Of a stretch of 64,000 nucleotides of DNA, positions 5,297 through 53,832 are shown one piece after another (the stretch's first letter is position 1; the number at the start of each line of letters is the position of its first letter). Made by a program: the position numbers and the translations under genes. The stretch comes from Nitrospirota bacterium. GTDB lineage: Bacteria; Nitrospirota; UBA9217. The stretch spans positions 1,791-65,790 of the forward strand of contig DASPSR010000011.1 of assembly GCA_035623825.1 (NCBI GenBank), given 5' to 3'. The notes beneath the pieces were generated by a model. That model had not been told where the DNA came from and ran no database searches. It saw nothing but the letters and a program-made list of their open reading frames with translations.

Positions 5297-5308
5297 TCAT
5301 AAAAGTTT

Positions 5309-5366
5309 GCAGGTGATGGAGTTCGCCGTTAACCGCCTCTTTTATGGGGCTGATGACTCCTACTCT
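5309..5366 (+). promoter_or_regulatory. Fluoride riboswitch (crcB RNA motif) no. 1
   Basis: GGUGAUGGAGUUCGCC..UUAACCGCCUC-loop-GGGGCUGAUGACUCCUAC. P1 is GGUG/CGCC, P3 is GCCUC/GGGGC, pseudoknot is GGAGU/ACUCC. Matches the remembered crcB-motif consensus. crcB itself is in the operon. Confidence 0.85.
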
Positions 5367-5392
5367 CAATTTCATGAGGGCAGGAGTTTTTT
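5357..5392 (+). terminator. Intrinsic terminator forming the expression platform of riboswitch 1
   Basis: CTCCTACTCTC / GAGGGCAGGAG stem (one A.C mismatch) followed by TTTTTT. The 5' arm reuses the pseudoknot strand ACUCCUAC, so aptamer and terminator are mutually exclusive. Confidence 0.7.
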
Positions 5393-8182: not shown

Positions 8183-8200
8183 CGTTATCGCAGGCAAACA

Positions 8201-8260
8201 GCAGGTGATGGAGTTCACCATTAACCGTCCCGCGCATGCGGCGGGGCTGATGACTCCTAC
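8201..8260 (+). promoter_or_regulatory. Fluoride riboswitch (crcB RNA motif) no. 2
   Basis: GCAGGUGAUGGAGUUCACC.UUAACCGUCCCGC-GCAU-GCGGCGGGGCUGAUGACUCCUAC. Nearly identical core to no. 1. P1 carries a compensatory change (GGUG/CACC versus GGUG/CGCC). Confidence 0.85.
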
Positions 8261-8288
8261 TCTCGAAAGATGAGGGTAGGAGTTTTTT
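8254..8288 (+). terminator. Intrinsic terminator forming the expression platform of riboswitch 2
   Basis: CTCCTACTCTC / GAGGGTAGGAG forms an 11-bp stem followed by TTTTTT. It overlaps the aptamer 3' strand as in no. 1. Confidence 0.7.
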
Positions 8289-8315: not shown

Positions 8316-10097
8316 GTGGGTTCGGCAATGCAATCATCTTCAATATCAAAATATTCTCAATTGAAAAGCGACCTCTTGCAGTGCACCGACGATCTACTTG
8401 CCGTGGAGAACATCCGTGAATGCCCCTGCGAGGATCTGCGGGAAAAGATCCGGTCGAACGCCTTCAACCTCGTTGTCGTCGGTCAGTTCAAGCGCGGGAA
8501 AACGAGCCTCATCAACGCGCTGCTCGGCGCGGAGATACTGCCTGTAGCGGTCGTTCCTCTCACCTCCATCGTCACTATCATGACCTACGGAGAAGCGCTC
8601 AGGATGAAGGTTTACTTCAATGACGGGAAAATTGCTGAGATCAAGCCGGAAAATCTTATGGAATATGTTACGGAAAAAGGAAATCCCAAAAACGTCAAAG
8701 ATGTGCATGAAGTCGTTATTACATATCCGTCTCCCTATCTCAAGGACGGCGTGCGGCTTATCGATACGCCCGGCGTAGGCTCGATCTATCAGCACAATAC
8801 GGACGTTGCCTACCAGTATCTGCCGAAATCGGACGCCGCACTTTTCCTTCTCTCCGTGGACCAGCCCATGAGCAGGGCGGAGCTCGATTTTTTGAACGAC
8901 GTGAAGGAGTATTCAAACAAGATATTCTTTGTTCTGAACAAAGCGGATTATCTAAGGGAGAGCGATCTTAAGGAATCCCTCGAATTTTCCAAAACCGGGC
9001 TTGAGGAAGCGATGGGTTCAGAGGTAAAGCTGTTCCCGGTGTCGGCTAGGCTCGCTCTCGAAGGGGAGGCTGCGAAATCCGATGAAATGATCCAGAAGAG
9101 CATGCTTCCCATCTTTTCTAAAGACCTGAACCGGTTCCTGATGGAAGAGAAGGGTAATGTTCTCTTGCTGTCCGTCGCTAACAATCTTCTACGGATCATA
9201 TCTCAAGCGAAACTTGAGCTCGCGCTTGAAATGAAGTCCCTCGAAACGCCGCTCGATGAACTTAAGAAAAAGATCTCAGTATTCGAAGATAAAAAGAGGG
9301 AGGTCATGCTCGAAAAGCAGGATTTCGATATCCTGCTTGACGGCGAGACCAAGAGATTGGCAAAAAACGTACTTGATGAGGATATTACGCGGTTCAGGAA
9401 AGAGCTGCTTGTTCATGAACAACCGCATCTTGAAGAGCAATTCGTTCAGATGAAAACGCTGCCATCCCGGGAGCTGCGAAACGCACTGGAGCAGTCCGTC
9501 ATAAACCATGTAAAACAGGCATTCAATGCATGGCGGGCAATCGAAGATGAAAGGCTTGCCAAGGCTTTTGAGGCGATCTGCAGGAGGTTCTCAATCAAGA
9601 TTAATGACACGGTTGACGCTCTACTGAAATATTCGTCCGATCTGTTTGAAATCCCCTTTGAGGCCGTTAAGACCGAGATGCTCTGGTCGGACAAGTCCCG
9701 GTTCTCATATAAATTTAGGGACGAACCCGTCGGAATTGAGATCGTAGCTTCGACATTGACCCTTGCGCTGCCCAAATTCATCGGCGACAGACTCATCTTG
9801 AATAAAATGAAGGAACACCTCATTCGTGTCGTGGATATGCAATTGGGCAGACTGGGGAGCGATTTTGAGGAACGACTCGACAAAAGCAAGCTCGATTTCC
9901 GCTGGGAAATGCTCCAGAAGATCGAAGCGGCAATTGAGGGAATCGGTACCGCCATCGAAAAGGGCATGACGAAACGATCAAGCGGCGAGCAGGAAGCCGC
10001 TGCAAGAAAGCGGACCACAACTGAGACCGTGGGAAAACTGGATGAGATTAAAAACAGACTCACACGGATCAGAGCAGCAGCCGACGCCGTGAAATAA
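8316..10097 (+). CDS. Bacterial dynamin-like GTPase
   Basis: G1 VVVGQFKRGKTSLINALLG, G3 LIDTPGVGS, G4 VLNKADYL, followed by a long helical stalk-like region. The start may be the ATG at 8328. Confidence 0.8.
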   Translation: MGSAMQSSSISKYSQLKSDLLQCTDDLLAVENIRECPCEDLREKIRSNAFNLVVVGQFKRGKTSLINALLGAEILPVAVVPLTSIVTIMTYGEALRMKVYFNDGKIAEIKPENLMEYVTEKGNPKNVKDVHEVVITYPSPYLKDGVRLIDTPGVGSIYQHNTDVAYQYLPKSDAALFLLSVDQPMSRAELDFLNDVKEYSNKIFFVLNKADYLRESDLKESLEFSKTGLEEAMGSEVKLFPVSARLALEGEAAKSDEMIQKSMLPIFSKDLNRFLMEEKGNVLLLSVANNLLRIISQAKLELALEMKSLETPLDELKKKISVFEDKKREVMLEKQDFDILLDGETKRLAKNVLDEDITRFRKELLVHEQPHLEEQFVQMKTLPSRELRNALEQSVINHVKQAFNAWRAIEDERLAKAFEAICRRFSIKINDTVDALLKYSSDLFEIPFEAVKTEMLWSDKSRFSYKFRDEPVGIEIVASTLTLALPKFIGDRLILNKMKEHLIRVVDMQLGRLGSDFEERLDKSKLDFRWEMLQKIEAAIEGIGTAIEKGMTKRSSGEQEAAARKRTTTETVGKLDEIKNRLTRIRAAADAVK

Positions 10098-10912: not shown

Positions 10913-12691
<1,779 letters not shown>

Positions 12692-25669: not shown

Positions 25670-27046
25670 ATGAAAGAGTATGATGTCATTGTGATCGGCG
25701 CGGGTGTTGGTACGAGAATCGCCTTTAAAGCATTATCCGCAGGTTTGAAGGTCGCCTTGGTCGACAAAAGACATCCCGGCGGAACGTGTCTTAATACCGG
25801 CTGAGTGCCGTCCAAGACGCTGATCTATCCGGCGGATAGAATACAAGAAATCAAGGAAGCCCGGAAATTCGGGATAGAGGCTAAGATAACCCGCGTCAAT
25901 TTCCGATCCATCATGGAACGTATGAAGAAGGCAGTCACCTCCGGCCGGATGCAGTTGCGAAAAGCGATCAGGGATGCCAAGAACCTGGATTTTTACAATG
26001 AGGCGGCACACTTCAGCGGAGACTACACCCTTGAGTTATCGCGAGAAAAAATCAAAGGAAGAAAGATATTCGTAGCCGTAGGCTCTCGCCCCTTGATCCC
26101 CTCAGTGCCGGGCCTCGATATCGTCGGATATTTAACCAACGAAAGCGTACTGGAGCTGAAAAGTAGACCGAAGAGCATCATCATTATCGGCGGAGGGTAT
26201 ATCGGCGTCGAATACGGGCATTTTTTTTCGGCCATAGGCACAAAAGTGACGATCGTCGGAAGAAGCGAAGTCCTTGTCCCCGATGAAGATAGCGACGTAT
26301 CGTCGCTGCTGCAAAGAGAATTGAAAAAACGCATGGATGTCCATACCGGGATGATGGTTACCCGGGTCGAAAAAAGAGGCGGGAACGTGACGGTTTTCGC
26401 GCAGGACAAAAAGAGCGGCCAGAAGAAAAGATTTGCCGCCGAACGCGTCATGGTCGCAACGGGAAGAGTATCCAATGTCGATCTGCTAAAACCGGAAAAT
26501 ACCGGCGTTGCCATTGACGAGAGAAATTACATTAGAGTCGACGATCAACTCCAGACGAGCACAGAGAACATCTGGGCAGTCGGCGACGGTATTGGCAGGC
26601 AGATGTTCACGCACGCCGGGGACAAGGAGGCTGAGATCGCCTGGCATAATGCCACGCACGGCGAAAAAATAAAAATGGATTTTACAGCCGTGCCCCGCGT
26701 AATTTTCTCTCATCCGCAGATCGCGTCAGTGGGCCTGACGGAAGCGCAGGCGCGAAAGGACCATAACGTCCTTGTGGGAAGGGCACAGTACTCCGACATT
26801 GTGGCCGGTGACACCATGGCGGAAAAAGAGGGCTTCGCCAAGGTGATTGTGGAAAAAGGTTCCGAGAGGCTTCTCGGGTGCCATATGATCGGCCCCTATG
26901 CGTCTCACCTAATACAGGAAGCGGCGAACGTTATCGCTGACAGGGGAAGTGTAAATGCAATTACCGGCAAGATGCATGCGTTCCCGACGCTGCCGGAACT
27001 CATTCCCGAGGCGCTGGGGAACCTCGAAGGGAGCGGATCTGTTTGA
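25670..27046 (+). CDS. Class-I pyridine nucleotide-disulfide oxidoreductase (dihydrolipoyl dehydrogenase/mycothione reductase-like), probable selenoprotein
   Basis: ATG 25670. MKEYDVIVIGAGVG...GGTCLNTG-TGA(25802-25804)-VPSKTLI continues in frame into track ORF 25805-27046. The TGA sits at the second Cys of the redox CxxxxC motif. C-terminal HAFPTLPE His-Glu motif. Stem-loop at 25824-25840. Confidence 0.7.
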
Positions 27047-28703: not shown

Positions 28704-29072
28704 ATGGAAAACAAGGAATTCGTATTTGTCATTACTCATTCATATGACGCCATAGAGCGGGCTGCCGCGGCTTTGCAGCTTGCAACTAATATGGCTGCTT
28801 TCGATGCAAAGATCGATTTTTTCCTGATTAATGAAGGTGTGTACCTAGCCAAGAAAGGCTTTGCCGAGTCAGTCACGTGGCAAAAAGGTTTCTCTCCCGT
28901 TGCAGACCTTATGAAAAGCCTGGTAGATGATTTTGACTGCAAATTCTACGTGTGCGCATCCTGCGTAAAGCCTTACGGGCTGGAGGGGACGGAATGGATC
29001 AAGAATGCCGAAGTCAAGCCGGGATCCTTTCTTGGCGAACTCCTTATGAAGAGGCAAAATGTGACATTCTGA
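28704..29072 (+). CDS. DsrE/DsrF-like family protein
   Basis: GGGAGGA RBS. FVFVITHS......A..AL.LA.......A.I.FFL.NEGV.L and FYVCASC pattern of the DsrE-fold family. Confidence 0.7.
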   Translation: MENKEFVFVITHSYDAIERAAAALQLATNMAAFDAKIDFFLINEGVYLAKKGFAESVTWQKGFSPVADLMKSLVDDFDCKFYVCASCVKPYGLEGTEWIKNAEVKPGSFLGELLMKRQNVTF

Positions 29073-29097
29073 AAGACTGAAAATACCTCATGAAAAA

Positions 29098-29124
29098 CAG
29101 ACCGTTTCTCGGTCTGTTTTTTTT
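29098..29124 (+). terminator. Intrinsic terminator
   Basis: CAGACC-gtttctc-GGTCTG followed by TTTTTTTT. Confidence 0.75.
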
Positions 29125-29218
29125 CGTTCTGTTCGTTTCCCCTCAACTCAGAATTTTACGTTGACAAATCCATAAAAACATAATAATCTTTGCATATATT
29201 ATCTGGAGGACGTCGCTT

Positions 29219-29560
29219 TTGCTCCCTGTTGAAAGTCGGCTTGAACTTCTCAAAGTAATCGCTCATCCCATCCGCATCAAGATACTCGAAGATCTGACCA
29301 AGGGCGTCAAATGCGTGAGCGACTTCGAGGAGGCTTTCGACATTAGCCAGCCAAACGTGTCTCAGCACTTGAAACTCCTTCGCTCGCACCATGTCGTCGA
29401 CTACTTTGTCGACGGAAGGCTCAAATGCTATTTCCTGAAGGAGCCGTTTATTCCTGATCTACTCGAACTTCTGAAGAAAGAATATAAAAGAGATATCCCG
29501 GCGCCGGCATGCTGCCCGGTAACAAAAAAAGGGACCTATCCTGGCGAAAGGAGACGTTAG
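29219..29560 (+). CDS. ArsR/SmtB-family transcriptional regulator (BigR/SqrR-like cysteine pattern)
   Basis: TTG start behind GGAGGA. LKVIAHPIRIKILEDL....KCVSDF......SQPNVSQHLKLLR wHTH. One Cys in helix 2 and a CC pair near the C-terminus. Confidence 0.8.
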   Translation: MLPVESRLELLKVIAHPIRIKILEDLTKGVKCVSDFEEAFDISQPNVSQHLKLLRSHHVVDYFVDGRLKCYFLKEPFIPDLLELLKKEYKRDIPAPACCPVTKKGTYPGERRR

Positions 29561-29659
29561 TAAATATGACTCGTTTTTCCCGGGGCGATCGCCGGAACGG
29601 CCGGAAAGATAGTATGTAAAAGCGGTGGTAGAGACGTCTGGTTATATGAGGAGGTTGCC

Positions 29660-30016
29660 ATGCCGAAAACTGTTACTCTGTATCTATCAACGTCGCCATA
29701 CTCCTACGAGAATACGCTTACGGCCGCCCGGATGGCAGAATCGGCCTTGAACAAAGGCCATCCCGTCAATCTCATCGCCTCGGCTGACGGAGTATACTGT
29801 TTCCTCACCAAGCAGAAAGCAAAAGGCATTCTAAATGCTGAGGAGGAATTCAGCCGCCTCATACAAAAGGGGCTGAAGGTGTATCTCTGAGGCGGGTGCC
29901 TCAACTTTCGCCGTGCGGCGAAGGAAGATTATCTTGCAGGAACGGAAGTCGGCTCTCTGAAGGGACTTTTCGAAACCATGGCTGAGACCGACGTGTGGGT
30001 CAATATCGGGGCATGA
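29660..30016 (+). CDS. DsrE/TusD-like sulfur-carrier subunit, probable selenoprotein
   Basis: Track ORF 29660-29890 ends ...GLKVYL-TGA(29888-29890). The frame stays open to TGA 30014-30016 (GGCLNFRRAAKEDYL...SLKGLFETMAETDVWVNIGA). The whole aligns to TusD/DsrE with the TGA at the active-site Cys (..LNICVAAALRRG..). 8-bp hairpin with GUGC loop at 29905-29924. Confidence 0.7.
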
Positions 30017-30028
30017 GAGGAGAAAAAT

Positions 30029-30382
30029 ATGGGAAGCGTTGCGATGATTCTGAAGCGATCTCCCTATGGCGACATCAATGCTGCCGAGGCCGTTCGGCAT
30101 GCGCTCGGCGCCATGTCTTTCGAGATGAACGTTGATCTGATCCTGGTGGACGGAGGCGTGCTGCTTGCGAAGAAGGGACAGGATGACAAAGGGACAGGAT
30201 TCACCAATCTTGAAGGCGCTCTCAAGGACTGCATCGATATGGGCGTAGCAGTCTACGCGGACGTTGCATCACTTAAAGCGCAAGGCGTTCCGGCAAATGA
30301 CCTGGCGGGAAACGTGAAGCTGGTCGGCGCGAAAGAGATCGCCGGGCTCATGAAAAAAGCAAAATCGACGATGATATTCTGA
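30029..30382 (+). CDS. DsrF/TusC-like subunit
   Basis: ILKRSPYG......A.R.ALGA......V.L.LV.DGV.L pattern. 117 aa. 12 nt after the preceding stop. Confidence 0.7.
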   Translation: MGSVAMILKRSPYGDINAAEAVRHALGAMSFEMNVDLILVDGGVLLAKKGQDDKGTGFTNLEGALKDCIDMGVAVYADVASLKAQGVPANDLAGNVKLVGAKEIAGLMKKAKSTMIF

Positions 30383-30392
30383 GGAGGCTCAT

Positions 30393-30674
30393 ATGATCGT
30401 GATGATAAAAAGCGGGCCGGACACGACAGACGGGGCGAGCGGTGTGACATTAGCAAAGGTGGGAGGGGCAGATATTGTGCTGTTGCAGAACGGGGTCTAT
30501 TTCGCGCGGAAAGATCGGCTCGGGCCGTTTGCAGGCGCGGTGTATGTCCTTGACGACGACAAGCGGCTCCGGGGTCTCAAGGATTCGGAGATGGACGCCC
30601 GCGTAAAAACCATCGACTACGACAAGCTGACCGATATTATTACAGGAGGCGAAAACGTGGTTGGAATGTTCTAA
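30393..30674 (+). CDS. DsrH/TusB-like subunit
   Basis: 93 aa. ...D.VLLQNGVYFA.....L......VYVL..D...RGL pattern of TusB/DsrH. Confidence 0.65.
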   Translation: MIVMIKSGPDTTDGASGVTLAKVGGADIVLLQNGVYFARKDRLGPFAGAVYVLDDDKRLRGLKDSEMDARVKTIDYDKLTDIITGGENVVGMF

Positions 30675-30700
30675 ACCGGCAGTAGAAGGGGGTGCATGCC

Positions 30701-31891
30701 ATGTCAAGGATCGTTGTGTTGGGGGGATCGTTTGGGGGGCTTACAGCGGCTCTTGAGCTGAAACGGCTGCTGGGCAAGAAAACTGACGTGACCTTGGCAA
30801 GCGACGACGATCGGTTCGTGTTCCTGCCGTCGCTGCCGTGGATTATTATGGGCTGGAGAAAGCCCGCGGACATCACGCTCAAGGTGAGCGAGATCCTGAA
30901 ACCGAAGGGGATCGAGTTTGTCCATGATACCGCACAGCAGATCGATGCTGATGCTTCCAAGGTAATCACTTCCAAGGGGAAAGAGCTTCCCTATGATTAT
31001 CTCGTGATTTCAACGGGACCCTATCTCGCCTTCGATGAAATTCCAGGTCTCGGACCCGACAAAGGATACACAGCCTGCACTTTCACCCTTGATCACGCGA
31101 TGAAGACCCAAGAAGCATGGAAAAAGGTCTTGGAAGACCCCGGCCCAATCGTGCTCGGTTCGTCTCAGATGGTGAGCTGCTTCGGCCCATCCTATGAGCT
31201 GGCTTTCGAAATGGATGCGGAACTGAGGCGGCGCAAGATGCGGCACAAGGTCCCGATCACCTATCTCACGTCGGAGCCTTTTCTGGGGCACATGGGCGTC
31301 GGAGGGCTCGGCAACTCGAAAATCTTTATCGAATACGAATTCGCCGAACGGGACATCAAGCCAATGGTGAGCCAGGCCATCCAGGAAGTTGCTCCTGGGG
31401 AGATCCGCCTGAAAGACGGGAATAAAATGCCGTTCAAGCTCGCCATGATAGCTCCACCGTTCAAAGGGGTGCCTGCCGTCATGCCGCTCGGCAATCCCCG
31501 TGGATTCATTCCAGTGGACAAGAACTACCGCCATACGAAACATAGAAATATCTTCGCCGTAGGCGTGGCTATGGCAATAGCTCCGCCAGAGGCGACACCG
31601 GTACCCACGGGCGTCCCGAAAACGGGATTTATGACCGTAAAAATGGCGAAGACCGCGGCCGCCACGATCGCCTCGGATGTTACCGGGGGGGCTGCAAAGC
31701 CGGGTGGCGAACTCGGCGTGGTCTGCCTCATGGACATGGGGAAAACCGCCGCGCTAATGAAGGCATATCCTGTTCTTCCGCCGAGGCAGAGCACCTATAT
31801 GAAGAAGGCGATCTGGGCGAAGTGGATGAAGGTTCGATTCGAGAAATATTTTCTCTGGAAGATGAAAATGGGGCTCAGCAATCTGCCGTGA
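30701..31891 (+). CDS. Sulfide:quinone oxidoreductase-like FAD-dependent disulfide reductase
   Basis: ATG 30701 behind GAAGGGGG. IVVLGGSFGGLTAALELKR dinucleotide fold. Cys motifs MVSCFGPSYELAFE and VVCLMDMGKTAA sit at the positions of the SQR redox cysteines (from memory). Confidence 0.75.
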   Translation: MSRIVVLGGSFGGLTAALELKRLLGKKTDVTLASDDDRFVFLPSLPWIIMGWRKPADITLKVSEILKPKGIEFVHDTAQQIDADASKVITSKGKELPYDYLVISTGPYLAFDEIPGLGPDKGYTACTFTLDHAMKTQEAWKKVLEDPGPIVLGSSQMVSCFGPSYELAFEMDAELRRRKMRHKVPITYLTSEPFLGHMGVGGLGNSKIFIEYEFAERDIKPMVSQAIQEVAPGEIRLKDGNKMPFKLAMIAPPFKGVPAVMPLGNPRGFIPVDKNYRHTKHRNIFAVGVAMAIAPPEATPVPTGVPKTGFMTVKMAKTAAATIASDVTGGAAKPGGELGVVCLMDMGKTAALMKAYPVLPPRQSTYMKKAIWAKWMKVRFEKYFLWKMKMGLSNLP

Positions 31892-42473: not shown

Positions 42474-43697
42474 ATGAACTTTTTGAGACTATTCATAACC
42501 ATTTGCACTGTAGCTGCTTTCAACGCAGCTTATGCCGACGATTCCAATTTAAAATTGTTGGCAGAAAGCAATTTAGCATTCGGCATAAATATGTATCAGC
42601 AGCTGAGAAAGCCGAACTCAAATTTGTTTTTCTCTCCGTTCAGCATATATGAGACATTATCGATGGTGAATGACGGTGCAGAAGGAGAAACAGCTTCTCA
42701 GATAAAAGAGGTGCTCCGGCCAGCTACAGGATTAGATATCCGTCAGGGCGTCAAGAATGCGAATATATTAATAGAAAACATGCAGAAAGATGGTCAAGGA
42801 GAAATTGCAGTAGCAAACTCAATCTGGCCCGACCGCGATTATCATTTTCTCGAACGTTATATATCTTTGCTCAAAGACATATATGGTGTACGGATCGAGC
42901 CTGTTGACTACAAGAAGGAAGATACCCGGGAAAAGGCGCAAAAAAAGATAAATCAGTGGGTTGAAGAAAAGACCAGAGGCAAAATCAAAAACTTGATTAG
43001 TAAGGACATGCTGGATGAGGATACACGGATGGTGCTGACAAATGCGATCTATTTTAAGGGTAATTGGGAAACGACCTTTGATAAGGCCGCCACTCGCAAG
43101 TTACCATTCCACAGAGATAATGGCTCCGATGTGACAGCGGATTTCATGAACAGAAGAGGAGTGTTCGGGTATACTGAAGTCGAAAAAGCGCAATTGTTGG
43201 AGATACCTTACAAAGGTGATAAAACTTCGATGGTGATTGTGCTTCCTGATTCTTCGTCTGAAATAAGGCAAATTGAGGATAAGTTATCAGTCGTACAACT
43301 CAGTGATTGGATGTCAAAAATGCAATATAGAAAGGTTGATGCCGTTATCCCCAAGTTTAAAATGGATTATGGCATATTGCTGAATGAGCCCCTCGAATCA
43401 TTGGGAATGAAACAGGCTTTCGATAAAAAACGTGCTGATTTCTCGGGGATGGACGGTTGTAACGCGCAAAAATGCTACCATTGGCTTTATGTCAGCAAAG
43501 GAATACATAAAGCATTCATATCTGTTGACGAAGAGGGTACGGAGGCCGCTGCTGCAACGTCAGTTCATATGGCGGAATTGACATCAGTAGGGCCACCAAC
43601 GCCGGTGTTCAAGGCGGATCATCCTTTCTTATTTTTTATTCGTGAAAGAGACAATGGTATCGTTCTGTTTATGGGGAGATTTGCCACACCGCAATGA
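42474..43697 (+). CDS. Secreted serpin (serine protease inhibitor)
   Basis: Signal peptide. FFSPFSIYETLSMV, inhibitory hinge EEGTEAAAAT, FKADHPFLFFIRE. Confidence 0.9.
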   Translation: MNFLRLFITICTVAAFNAAYADDSNLKLLAESNLAFGINMYQQLRKPNSNLFFSPFSIYETLSMVNDGAEGETASQIKEVLRPATGLDIRQGVKNANILIENMQKDGQGEIAVANSIWPDRDYHFLERYISLLKDIYGVRIEPVDYKKEDTREKAQKKINQWVEEKTRGKIKNLISKDMLDEDTRMVLTNAIYFKGNWETTFDKAATRKLPFHRDNGSDVTADFMNRRGVFGYTEVEKAQLLEIPYKGDKTSMVIVLPDSSSEIRQIEDKLSVVQLSDWMSKMQYRKVDAVIPKFKMDYGILLNEPLESLGMKQAFDKKRADFSGMDGCNAQKCYHWLYVSKGIHKAFISVDEEGTEAAAATSVHMAELTSVGPPTPVFKADHPFLFFIRERDNGIVLFMGRFATPQ

Positions 43698-44770: not shown

Positions 44771-44865
44771 ACAAATATAAATCCGTCAACACGTAACTCA
44801 TGTTCTCAATATTTTTTAGAAAAAAAAGGTTACGGTTAATTTAAATCCCTGAACACAAGATAACA

Positions 44866-44944
44866 CGATAAAGCCAAACCCTTCGCGAGAGGGGGACGGA
44901 AAGCGGCGGGTCTTAGAAGACAAAGATGGCCGAGCTGCCGAAGG
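44866..44944 (+). promoter_or_regulatory. GEMM-I (c-di-GMP-I class) riboswitch aptamer no. 1
   Basis: AAAGCCAAACC-CUUC-GCGA(GNRA)-GAGGGG-GACGGAAAGC-GGCGGG..hairpin..GGCCGAGCUGCCGAAGG. Matches the remembered GEMM-I consensus (GCAAACC..GNRA..GGGACGCAAAGCC....GCUGCC). Confidence 0.7.
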
Positions 44945-46576: not shown

Positions 46577-46665
46577 TCAATTATCTGTCTGTTACCACAT
46601 TACTCGATATTCTGAAAATTTTTCAGAATAAAATGCACTTCGTTCCACCTGAACACATGATGGCC

Positions 46666-46744
46666 CGATAAAGCCAAACCCTTCGCGAGAGGGGTGCGGA
46701 AAGCGGCGGGTCTTAGAAGACTAAGACGGCCGAGCTGCCGAAGG
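46666..46744 (+). promoter_or_regulatory. GEMM-I riboswitch aptamer no. 2
   Basis: Same core as no. 1. The internal helix GUCUUAG/CUAAGAC is perfectly paired. Confidence 0.7.
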
Positions 46745-53739: not shown

Positions 53740-53832
53740 GGATCCCGATAAAGCCAAACCCTTTGCAAGAGGAGCGGAAAGCGGCGGATCTTAAAAAACA
53801 AAGATGGCCGAGCTGCCGAAGGCTAAGATCCC
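53740..53832 (+). promoter_or_regulatory. GEMM-I riboswitch aptamer no. 3 (more divergent)
   Basis: AAAGCCAAACC-CUUU-GCAA(GNRA)-GAGG..GCGGAAAGCGGCGG..GGCCGAGCUGCCGAAGG. Closing helix GGAUC/GAUCC. No terminator follows. Confidence 0.6.

What the first reader, a model, noticed from the sequence alone, without database searches (positions are those of the whole stretch)
29660..30016. DsrE/TusD-like sulfur carrier with selenocysteine at the active-site cysteine position
Seen in sequence:
- The ORF stops at TGA 29888-29890 after ...KGLKVYL.
- The same frame then stays open for 41 more codons (GGCLNFRRAAKEDYL...DVWVNIGA) to a stop at 30014-30016.
- The joined 118-residue product aligns end to end with TusD/DsrE (GVY, ..V.L-C/U-......RR., ..SL..L.E....D.V..I).
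- The TGA falls on the persulfide-carrying Cys.
- An 8-bp hairpin with a GUGC loop (29905-29924) begins 15 nt after the TGA, which fits a bacterial SECIS.

Established knowledge: DsrE-like proteins have appeared in computational selenoproteome surveys (from memory).

Inference: this is a Sec-containing DsrE that would carry perselenide or selenosulfide, inside a DsrEFH-like complex.
Basis: partly seen in the sequence, partly recalled or inferred. Interest (0 to 1): 0.7.

Follow-up and report, generated by a model that had tools for sequence, protein, structure and literature searches.

The report
Selenocysteine DsrE-like protein beside sulfide:quinone reductase
A small sulfur-handling protein gene looks cut short by a stop codon, but that codon almost certainly encodes selenocysteine at the active site; proteins of this kind have been predicted before, and this uncultured-bacteria version is truncated in every database entry found.

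Summary
The ORF 29660-29887 stops at TGA 29888-29890, and the frame stays open for 41 more codons to 30014-30016. The joined 118-residue product is a full-length DsrE-family domain.

Evidence that the TGA is decoded:
- The TGA aligns with Cys78 of DsrE and TusD, and with the first Cys of the YchN CxxC motif, giving a U-G-G-C motif.
- All 22 full-length orthologues from other Nitrospirota species, and four more distant lineages, keep TGA there. The true stop codon varies.
- The downstream codons are under purifying selection (pN/pS 0.15).
- More distant homologues carry Cys at this position.

The hairpin at 29905-29924 meets the published bacterial SECIS consensus. It is the stretch of the gene with the least synonymous variation, and distant homologues have a different stem sequence at the same place.

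The gene is the first subunit of a conserved operon: ArsR regulator, DsrE(Sec), DsrF-like, DsrH-like, type I sulfide:quinone reductase.

"DsrE-like, UxxC" has been a catalogued predicted selenoprotein family since 2004-2005, so this is a new, systematically mis-annotated member of a known kind. The Sec machinery could not be checked, because the window holds no sel genes. A second Sec candidate lies in the window: a dihydrolipoyl-dehydrogenase-like flavoprotein with a CLNTG-U motif, at 25670-27046.

The parts
29092..29122 (+). Terminator-like hairpin (13 bp, followed by a T run) that closes the upstream unit and marks the upstream boundary of the operon
29155..29184 (+). Sigma-70-like promoter match upstream of the regulator gene. 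This is a weak consensus match only.
   Evidence: 9 of 12 positions; the number of such matches in the region is no higher than in shuffled sequence
29219..29560 (+). ArsR/SmtB-family HTH regulator of 113 aa with Cys residues in VKCVSDF, RLKCYF and PACCP. Its effector is unknown.
   Evidence: Pfam HTH_5 E = 3.3e-11. NCBIfam HTH_metalloreg 69.6 bits, above its cut-off; the BigR match is below cut-off. Syntenic in nearly all orthologous loci.
29660..30016 (+). Full DsrE-like selenoprotein gene: 118 codons plus stop, with Sec at codon 77 in a U-G-G-C motif
29888..29890 (+). In-frame TGA read as selenocysteine. It aligns with Cys78 of DsrE/TusD and with Cys in more distant homologues.
29905..29924 (+). 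SECIS-type hairpin inside the coding sequence: 8-bp stem, GUGC apical loop, 22 nt between the UGA and the loop
   Evidence: consensus criteria taken from PMC13188914
30029..30382 (+). DsrF/TusC-like subunit, 117 aa. AGGAG at 30018-30022. Its start lies 12 nt after the true stop of the Sec gene.
   Evidence: Pfam DsrE E = 2.1e-17. TIGR03010 scores 40.3 bits, below its 94.15 cut-off. Synteny.
30393..30674 (+). DsrH/TusB-like subunit, 93 aa, with no cysteine
   Evidence: Pfam DsrH E = 1.2e-8. TIGR03011 scores 34.2 bits, below its 49.2 cut-off. Sequence; synteny.
30692..31891 (+). Type I sulfide:quinone oxidoreductase, 399 aa, last gene of the conserved module
   Evidence: PDB 3hyv (Aquifex SQR) E = 3.9e-96 and 3sy4 E = 4.5e-96. 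Synteny.

Best explanation
29660-30016 is one gene for a 118-residue DsrE-family protein whose 77th codon, UGA, is decoded as selenocysteine.

Inferred mechanism of decoding (the standard bacterial pathway): as the ribosome reaches UGA 29888-29890, the hairpin at 29905-29924 (8-bp stem, GUGC loop) recruits SelB-GTP-Sec-tRNA(Sec). Sec is inserted and translation continues to the stop at 30014-30016.

Sec77 occupies the position of the sulfur-carrying Cys78 of DsrE/TusD and, together with Cys80, forms a U-G-G-C redox motif.

Inferred from gene order and family: the protein is the E subunit of a TusBCD/DsrEFH-type complex with the products of 30029-30382 and 30393-30674.

Inferred from conserved synteny only: the complex works with the co-transcribed type I sulfide:quinone reductase (30692-31891). 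It would take up, or reductively resolve, the sulfane sulfur (persulfide or polysulfide) that SQR makes from sulfide, through a Se-S intermediate on Sec77 that Cys80 can resolve. The operon would be controlled by the ArsR-family regulator at 29219-29560.
For: What the sequence and comparisons show:
- The reading frame and TGA are as described.
- The joined product is a full-length DsrE domain.
- The TGA column equals Cys78 of DsrE/TusD and the first Cys of YchN's CxxC.
- TGA is kept in 22 of 22 full-length orthologues from different species, whose terminal stops vary between TGA and TAG.
- Downstream pN/pS is 0.147, against 0.065 upstream, with third-position-dominated variation. The in-frame extension has no stops, while the two other frames carry 17 and 23 stops across the set.
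- Four distant lineages (34-72% identity) also have TGA, then G-x-C, then about 40 conserved codons.
- Cys-containing full-length homologues exist, with CGGC, CGTC, CGSC and CGAC motifs.
- The hairpin meets all four published bSECIS criteria.
- Synonymous entropy is 0.225 bits in codons 82-88 against 1.0 elsewhere, the lowest of 111 windows.
- Only 0.15% of synonymous recodings fold as well.
- Distant homologues have a hairpin at the same offset with different stems and G-containing loops (GGUCU, AGGG).
- TGA is an ordinary stop in this genome: 19 of 51 long ORFs end with it.
- With the extension, the gap to the next gene is 12 nt instead of 138 nt, matching the 10-17 nt gaps elsewhere in the operon.
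- The order ArsR, E(U), F, H, SQR is conserved in about 25 loci. A Cys form sits in an analogous module of ArsR, E, F, H and an FCSD/SQR-like gene.
- A second gene in the window has TGA at a catalytic Cys position, with TGT or TGC in 73 of 80 homologues, which indicates that the organism decodes Sec.
- The DsrE-like UxxC selenoprotein family is catalogued.
Against: - No selA, selB, selC or selD lies in the 64-kb window or in the fetched loci, so the Sec machinery of this genome is unverified.
- No Rfam family matches the hairpin. Bacterial SECIS elements are too short and variable for this to count for much.
- The hairpin's excess stability over synonymous recodings is strong only in the window's clade (p = 0.0015). 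It is weak in the most distant forms (p = 0.03, 0.1 and 0.18).
- One orthologue (L009) loses two of the inner stem pairs.
- The functional steps (EFH complex, coupling to SQR, Se-S chemistry) rest only on homology and synteny.
- The F- and H-like subunits score below the NCBIfam equivalog cut-offs, and the H-like subunit has no Cys.
Confidence: 0.82

Rival explanations
1. The TGA is a true stop or a nonsense mutation. The gene would make a 76-residue DsrE fragment (or be a pseudogene), and 29891-30013 would be an untranslated spacer before dsrF.
For: All public gene calls end at residue 76: 106 of the top 120 hits are exactly 76 aa and none extends further at the C-terminus. Only five spurious 37-38-aa calls cover the downstream part. 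The Sec machinery has not been seen.
Against: A 76-residue product lacks the active-site loop and the last third of the DsrE fold. The downstream 41 codons are conserved as protein across 22 species and four distant lineages, with pN/pS 0.147 and no in-frame stops. TGA, and never TAA or TAG, sits at that codon in every lineage, while the terminal stops vary. Cys replaces it in homologues.
Confidence: 0.03
2. The UGA is read through, but not as selenocysteine. This could be near-cognate Trp, Cys or Arg insertion, or a lineage-wide reassignment of UGA.
For: No sel genes or tRNA-Sec were found in the sequence available.
Against: UGA ends 19 of 51 long ORFs in the window, including enolase, the serpin and SQR with full-length domain matches, so there is no reassignment. 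The codon sits exactly where homologues have the catalytic Cys, the classic Sec/Cys pair. A hairpin under selection at the SECIS position fits SelB recruitment. A second gene in the window shows the same pattern.
Confidence: 0.05
3. It is a Sec protein, but not a sulfur-relay subunit coupled to SQR. Either it acts as a YchN-like redox protein on its own, or it handles selenium rather than sulfur, like the CGxC-bearing DsrE-like domain of YedF that co-occurs with SelD.
For: The best solved-structure match is YchN, a homo-oligomer with a CxxC motif. The U-G-G-C motif has the CGxC form described for YedF's DsrE-like domain. The F- and H-like genes fall below equivalog cut-offs. Some Cys-form neighbourhoods hold methyltransferases and TauE rather than an adjacent SQR.
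Against: E-F-H order with 10-12-nt gaps is conserved in Sec and Cys forms across all lineages seen. SQR directly follows in about 25 loci. No YedE, YedF or SelD lies nearby.
Confidence: 0.15

Closest known systems
DsrE-like selenoprotein family (PF02635, UxxC motif). Predicted computationally by Kryukov & Gladyshev 2004 and Zhang et al. 2005/2006, for example in Desulfovibrio vulgaris and Sargasso Sea sequences; listed in the 2026 review PMC13188914.
   Same: Same Pfam domain, the same UxxC redox motif with Sec first, Cys-containing homologues, and a bacterial SECIS hairpin directly downstream of the UGA.
   Different: This clade comes from uncultured Nitrospirota and has no correctly annotated entry in the protein collection searched. 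Here it is shown to be the first gene of an E-F-H triad fused into an operon with type I SQR and an ArsR regulator. The papers read do not mention that context. Whether it is orthologous to the D. vulgaris protein was not tested.
DsrEFH of Allochromatium vinosum (PDB 2hy5) and TusBCD of E. coli (PDB 2d1p)
   Same: Three paralogous small subunits encoded in E-F-H order. The active residue sits at the Cys78 position of the E/D subunit. The alignment runs end to end.
   Different: Sec replaces Cys, and a second Cys three residues later gives UxxC; DsrE and TusD have CVAA. The H-like subunit has no Cys. The F and H subunits score below the NCBIfam equivalog cut-offs and the E subunit matches no NCBIfam model. 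No dsrAB, dsrC, tusA or tusE was found nearby; the partner gene is SQR.
YchN of E. coli (PDB 1jx7)
   Same: Closest solved structure by sequence (profile E = 1.8e-15). It has the same length of about 117 aa. Its C-K-T-C motif aligns with U-G-G-C.
   Different: YchN is a stand-alone homohexamer with Cys and no known function. The window's gene is Sec-containing and always followed by F- and H-like genes.
E. coli fdhF-type bacterial SECIS (bSECIS consensus of Zhang & Gladyshev)
   Same: A stem-loop inside the coding sequence just 3' of the UGA, with a small apical loop starting G-U or G-G and 16-37 nt between UGA and loop. Here the figures are an 8-bp stem, a GUGC loop, 22 nt spacing and -12.4 kcal/mol. 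The distant homologue L030 even has the fdhF-like loop GGUCU (the fdhF loop sequence is from memory).
   Different: No bulged U is evident in the upper stem. SelB binding is untested. No Rfam model matches.

Membership tests
DsrE-like selenoprotein (PF02635, UxxC) | DsrE/DsrF-like domain (PF02635) spanning the in-frame UGA | tested here: met
   56.5 bits against a 22.7 cut-off, residues 5-112
DsrE-like selenoprotein (PF02635, UxxC) | In-frame UGA aligned with a conserved Cys of homologues (a Sec/Cys pair), in a UxxC motif | tested here: met
   U-G-G-C here. Homologues carry CGGC, CGTC, CGSC and CGAC, and YchN has CKTC. C77 and R84 are invariant and C80 is at least 90% conserved in alignment A2. 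The UxxC motif is listed for the family.
DsrE-like selenoprotein (PF02635, UxxC) | Sequence downstream of the UGA conserved as coding sequence | tested here: met
   22 orthologues plus four distant lineages; pN/pS 0.147
DsrE-like selenoprotein (PF02635, UxxC) | Genome encodes SelA, SelB, SelD and tRNA-Sec | not testable with these tools
   None in the window or the fetched loci, and the rest of the genome is not available. Indirect support: a second Sec/Cys-pair gene in the window, and Nitrospirae are reported to carry selB with an embedded selC.
DsrE-like selenoprotein (PF02635, UxxC) | Selenium actually incorporated | not testable with these tools
   Needs 75Se labelling or mass spectrometry
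Bacterial SECIS (bSECIS consensus model) | Apical loop of 3-9 nt on an upper stem of 4-16 bp | tested here: met
   4-nt loop and 8-bp stem; criteria
Bacterial SECIS (bSECIS consensus model) | G in one of the first two loop positions, usually followed by G or U | tested here: met
   Loop GUGC here; GGUCU and AGGG in distant homologues
Bacterial SECIS (bSECIS consensus model) | 16-37 nt between the UGA and the apical loop | tested here: met
   22 nt here; 21 and 18 nt in L030 and L032/L033
Bacterial SECIS (bSECIS consensus model) | Minimum free energy of -7.5 kcal/mol or lower | tested here: met
   -12.4 kcal/mol for the 33-nt segment
Bacterial SECIS (bSECIS consensus model) | Binds SelB and is required for read-through | not testable with these tools
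   Indirect only: suppressed synonymous variation and a structure retained despite sequence turnover
DsrEFH / TusBCD sulfur-relay complex | Three adjacent genes for E/D-, F/C- and H/B-type subunits | tested here: met
   Pfam DsrE, DsrE, DsrH in that order with 10-12-nt gaps; conserved
DsrEFH / TusBCD sulfur-relay complex | Subunits reach the NCBIfam equivalog scores for TusD/DsrE, TusC/DsrF and TusB/DsrH | tested here: not met
   E: no NCBIfam hit. F: 40.3 against 94.15. H: 34.2 against 49.2.
DsrEFH / TusBCD sulfur-relay complex | Active-site Cys78 in the E/D subunit | tested here: met
   The position is occupied by Sec
DsrEFH / TusBCD sulfur-relay complex | Conserved Cys20 in DsrH. This feature of A. 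vinosum DsrEFH is recalled from memory. | tested here: not met
   The 93-aa H-like product contains no Cys
DsrEFH / TusBCD sulfur-relay complex | Genomic link to dsrAB/dsrC or to tusA/tusE/mnmA | tested here: not met
   No TusA (CPxP) or DsrC-like ORF in the window. Neighbours are ArsR and SQR. The rest of the genome was not seen.
DsrEFH / TusBCD sulfur-relay complex | Alpha2-beta2-gamma2 heterohexamer | not testable with these tools
   Needs co-purification or a complex structure
YchN-like DsrE family proteins | Protein of about 117 aa with a CxxC at the active loop, and closest in sequence | tested here: met
   1jx7 is the best PDB hit; CKTC aligns with UGGC
YchN-like DsrE family proteins | Stand-alone gene forming a homo-oligomer | tested here: not met
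   The gene is always followed by F- and H-like genes. The oligomeric state was not testable.

The most novel reading that the evidence does not exclude
The Sec-DsrE/F/H triad would be a dedicated selenium-dependent acceptor or reductase for the sulfane sulfur released by the co-transcribed type I SQR. That would make it a sulfide-handling module distinct from both Dsr-linked DsrEFH and tRNA-thiolation TusBCD.

A second consequence would follow. The reported pattern that Thermodesulfovibrionia 'possess dsrFH, but no dsrE' (PMC11033732) would be an annotation artefact of this UGA. Metabolic marker calls that rely on dsrEFH would then be systematically wrong for this lineage.
Probability: 0.35. 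Interest if true: 0.55.

Novelty: new member of a known kind. Interest (0 to 1): 0.38.

Why it matters
The DsrE-like selenoprotein family is catalogued, but its function has never been characterised.

This clade gives it a clear and conserved genetic context: an E-F-H triad, type I SQR and an ArsR regulator. That context turns "unknown redox protein" into a testable hypothesis, namely a selenium-based acceptor or resolver of SQR-derived sulfane sulfur.

There is also a practical point. Every public gene call found for this clade is truncated at 76 residues. HMM-based pipelines that score dsrE would plausibly miss such a fragment, although that was not tested here. A study of groundwater Nitrospirota reports that most Thermodesulfovibrionia "possess dsrFH, but no dsrE". 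If those are these loci, which is an inference, the missing gene is this Sec gene. In that case the use of dsrEFH as a marker of sulfur oxidisers needs care in Sec-using lineages.

Tried and rejected
- **Rfam scans.** A scan of the whole window at gathering thresholds and a permissive scan of 29870-29960 gave no SECIS or other relevant family. The only matches were chance ones to RAGATH-32 and a lncRNA at E around 1.
- **The hairpin that includes the UGA.** The first small hairpin (UGAGGC-GGGU-GCCUCA) is not conserved in orthologues, so it was dropped.
- **Formal pair counting.** A MAFFT alignment of hairpins from divergent lineages mis-registers the stems, because the hairpin is shifted by 3 nt relative to the codon alignment. 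The count of structure pairs was therefore not run. The structures were compared directly instead.
- **Exhaustive HMMER search.** The 76-aa N-terminal part was used instead.
- **Search for sel genes and tRNA-Sec.** None were found in the window or in 38 related loci, which is uninformative at this scale.
- **Search for TusA or DsrC by motif.** Only out-of-frame noise was found.
- **Scan for further in-frame TGA candidates.** The scan was too noisy to add to the two cases described.
- **Regulator type.** PDB comparison did not settle whether the regulator is a BigR/SqrR-type persulfide sensor. It is a generic ArsR/SmtB protein.
- **Structure prediction.** Not attempted.
Full report
**1. The observation**

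- An ORF starts at ATG 29660, preceded by GAGGAGG at 29648-29654. It ends ...KGLKVYL at TGA 29888-29890.
- The same frame continues for 41 codons (GGCLNFRRAAKEDYL...DVWVNIGA) to TGA 30014-30016.
- With the TGA read as a residue, the product has 118 amino acids. It matches Pfam PF02635 (DsrE/DsrF-like) over residues 5-112, covering profile positions 3-112 of 116, with E = 3.7e-15.
- The hairpin CUUUCGCC-GUGC-GGCGAAGG lies at 29905-29924, fourteen bases after the TGA.

**2. Is the part behind the TGA translated?**

Public gene calls say no.
- Of the 120 best database hits, 106 are exactly 76 residues long, and none extends past that point.
- A search with the C-terminal part found only five spurious 37-38-residue calls.
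- This is what gene callers produce at any TGA, so I went to the DNA.

One scan of species-representative genomes returned 26 loci, almost all labelled Nitrospirota or Nitrospirae MAGs. They match the whole 118 residues at 81-92% identity.
- In all 22 loci that hold the complete gene, codon 77 is TGA. The terminal stop is TGA in some and TAG in others.
- Between these sequences, pN/pS is 0.065 upstream of the TGA and 0.147 downstream.
- Variable columns are concentrated at third codon positions on both sides: 21/16/74 upstream and 13/9/34 downstream, for positions 1/2/3.
- The two alternative frames downstream contain 17 and 23 stops across the set; the in-frame extension contains none.

An exhaustive HMMER search with the 76-residue part found more distant truncated relatives. 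I fetched their DNA.
- L027 (72% identity), L030/L031 (44%), L032 (39%) and L033 (34%) all have TGA at the same place.
- In each, the TGA is followed by G-x-C, the F-R-R/G motif and about 40 conserved codons. The final stops are TAA, TGA or TAG.
- The same search found full-length homologues with cysteine there: YLCGGCLGYRR, ELCGTCLNFRG, ELCGSCLRMRG and DACGACLVFRG.

This is the classic Sec/Cys pair. A pseudogene, a sequencing error or a real stop cannot explain it.

**3. Is UGA reassigned in this genome?**

No. TGA ends 19 of the 51 longest non-overlapping ORFs in the window. These include enolase, a serpin and the SQR, whose domain matches are complete.

**4. The hairpin**

The published bacterial SECIS consensus asks for four things (PMC13188914):
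- an apical loop of 3-9 nt on a stem of 4-16 bp;
- a G in one of the first two loop positions, usually followed by G or U;
- 16-37 nt between the UGA and the loop;
- a minimum free energy of -7.5 kcal/mol or lower.

The window's element has a 4-nt loop (GUGC), an 8-bp stem, 22 nt spacing and -12.4 kcal/mol. All four criteria are met.

Three further tests indicate that the structure is selected rather than a by-product of the peptide.
- Across the 23 orthologous sequences, codons 82-88 (N-F-R-R-A-A-K) use a single codon each for N, F, both six-fold Arg codons and one Ala. Mean synonymous entropy is 0.225 bits, against 1.0 bits in the rest of the gene. This is the lowest of 111 sliding windows. 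The one freely varying third position is the base that closes the loop.
- Only 0.15% of 2000 synonymous recodings of the same peptide, drawn from local codon usage, fold as well.
- The distant Sec forms carry a hairpin at the same offset with different stems and G-containing loops: CUUCCGC-GGUCU-GCGGAAG in L030, and GCGAUUC-AGGG-GAAUCGC in L032 and L033.

Some caveats apply.
- The recoding test is weak for the distant forms (p = 0.03 to 0.18).
- One orthologue (L009) loses two inner stem pairs.
- Rfam has no matching family.
- The small hairpin that includes the UGA itself is not conserved.

**5. Where Sec sits, and which family this is**

A profile built from Sec and Cys forms aligns end to end with three solved structures:

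| Structure | E-value |
|---|---|
| E. coli YchN (1jx7) | 1.8e-15 |
| A. vinosum DsrE (2hy5_A) | 3e-12 |
| E. coli TusD (2d1p_A) | 6e-9 |

The Sec column is Cys78 of DsrE and TusD, and the first Cys of YchN's C-K-T-C motif. The motif here is U-G-G-C. The second Cys is conserved in at least 90% of the family alignment. DsrE and TusD have no such second Cys. This clade therefore looks built for selenenylsulfide-type redox chemistry as well as for carrying sulfur.

**6. Context**

The gene sits in a tight operon.
- A strong terminator-like hairpin at 29092-29122 closes the upstream unit, and a weak promoter-like match lies at 29155-29184.
- Then come an ArsR/SmtB regulator (29219-29560) and the Sec gene.
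- Next are a DsrF/TusC-like gene (30029-30382, starting 12 nt after the true stop), a DsrH/TusB-like gene (30393-30674), and a type I sulfide:quinone reductase (30692-31891; E = 3.9e-96 to Aquifex SQR).
- If the gene ended at 29890, the gap to the next gene would be 138 nt. The other gaps in the operon are 10-17 nt.

The order ArsR, E(U), F, H, SQR recurs in essentially every orthologous locus long enough to show it.
- Some loci add a TauE/SafE exporter and a multihaem cytochrome between the regulator and the Sec gene.
- Distant Sec forms keep the E-F-H triad and often an ArsR gene.
- A Cys form (P0133) lies in an ArsR-rhodanese / methyltransferase / E-F-H / ... / FCSD-like module.

The triad is DsrEFH-like but is not DsrEFH or TusBCD.
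- The F and H products miss the NCBIfam equivalog cut-offs, and the E product matches no NCBIfam model.
- The H-like protein has no cysteine.
- No TusA or DsrC-like ORF lies in the window.

**7. The Sec machinery**

I could not test for it. No tRNA of any kind lies in the window, none of the ten large ORFs checked by Pfam is SelA, SelB or SelD, and no tRNA-Sec lies in 38 related loci. Two indirect points help.
- A review states that Nitrospirae carry selB with selC embedded in it.
- The window holds a second candidate. At 25670-27046, a dihydrolipoyl-dehydrogenase-like flavoprotein (554 bits to NF004947) is interrupted by TGA 25802-25804, exactly at the second Cys of the redox-active GGTCLNxGC motif.
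  - Of 80 metagenomic homologues, 73 have TGT or TGC there and 7 have TGA.
  - The TGA forms share a 7-bp hairpin with a GGC or GGG loop starting 19 nt downstream.
  - That hairpin is more stable than the equivalent region of the Cys forms: mean -9.0 against -4.7 kcal/mol.

**8. Mechanism**

*Shown:* one conserved reading frame across a UGA at the catalytic Cys position, a selected hairpin at the SECIS position, and conserved E-F-H-SQR synteny.

*Inferred from established knowledge of bacterial Sec insertion:* SelB bound to the hairpin delivers Sec-tRNA(Sec) to the UGA.

*Inferred from family and synteny:* the protein assembles with the F- and H-like subunits. It accepts or reductively resolves sulfane sulfur made by SQR, through a Se-S intermediate on Sec77 that Cys80 can attack. 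The ArsR protein would regulate the operon in response to an unknown effector. A BigR-type persulfide sensor is possible, but the match is below cut-off.

My confidence in each step:

| Claim | Confidence |
|---|---|
| Sec decoding | about 0.9 |
| E-F-H complex | about 0.6 |
| Coupling to SQR | about 0.4 |

**9. What is known, and novelty**

'DsrE-like protein, PF02635, UxxC' is an established, computationally predicted selenoprotein family.
- It is listed for Sargasso Sea sequences (PMC1088965).
- It is listed for Desulfovibrio vulgaris (PMC1794560).
- It appears in the 2026 review table (PMC13188914).
- The review says that the functions of nearly all such families remain largely unknown.

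The finding is therefore a new, uniformly mis-annotated member of a known kind, not a new kind. What this analysis adds is the conserved operon context with SQR and the comparative proof for the Nitrospirota clade.

It also suggests an explanation for a published remark that most Thermodesulfovibrionia 'possess dsrFH, but no dsrE' (PMC11033732). That the missing dsrE is this truncated Sec gene is my inference; I did not verify it on those genomes.

**10. Verdict**

Interest is moderate to low for a specialist (0.38). The main value lies in correcting annotation and in providing a testable functional context for an uncharacterised selenoprotein family.

Noticed in passing
window 25670-27046 (+), TGA at 25802-25804: Second selenoprotein candidate. 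A class-I flavoprotein disulfide reductase (dihydrolipoyl-dehydrogenase-like, 554 bits to NF004947) has an in-frame TGA at the second Cys of the redox-active motif, giving GGTCLNTG-U-VPSK. Of 80 metagenomic homologues, 73 have Cys and 7 have TGA. The TGA forms share a hairpin UCUAUCC-GGC-GGAUAGA starting 19 nt downstream. Keyword searches of the 2026 selenoproteome review found no dihydrolipoyl-dehydrogenase-like or CxxxxU entry, so it may be uncatalogued.
   Followed up: partly
window 28704-29072 (+), terminator-like hairpin at 29092-29122: A second DsrE-family gene (122 aa, motif C-A-S-C, Cys form) lies just upstream of the operon and is followed by a strong terminator-like hairpin. It is not found next to the Sec gene in the orthologous loci.
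   Followed up: partly
window 5303-5369 and 8195-8266 (+): Two fluoride riboswitches. The second directly precedes a 593-aa dynamin-family GTPase gene (8316-10097), an unusual-looking gene to follow this riboswitch. Enolase, a fluoride-sensitive enzyme, lies downstream at 11420-12691.
   Followed up: no
window 44864-44943, 46664-46743, 53743-53820 (+): Three c-di-GMP-I riboswitch aptamers within 9 kb. Two are of the GGC variant.
   Followed up: no
L006 (JBLMWN010000227.1): An orthologous ArsR-E(U)-F-H-SQR locus, about 90% identical to the Nitrospirota ones, sits in a MAG labelled Betaproteobacteria. This is either a mis-binned contig or a recent transfer.
   Followed up: no
L012 3979-5975: In some orthologous loci a TauE/SafE sulfite-exporter gene and a multihaem (5 x CxxCH) cytochrome gene lie between the ArsR gene and the Sec-DsrE gene. 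TauE also flanks the Cys form P0130.
   Followed up: partly
L037 3610-8523: The Cys-form module carries an ArsR-rhodanese fusion regulator and two SAM methyltransferases flanking E-F-H, upstream of an FCSD/SQR-like flavoprotein. This hints at methylation of a sulfur or selenium species.
   Followed up: no
window 42474-43697 (+): A full-length serpin (Pfam E = 3.3e-114) in a bacterial genome.
   Followed up: no
public protein collection (P0161-P0165): The only database entries covering the C-terminal 41 residues of the Sec-DsrE are five spurious 37-38-aa gene calls. No correctly joined entry was found among 5.8 billion clusters.
   Followed up: yes
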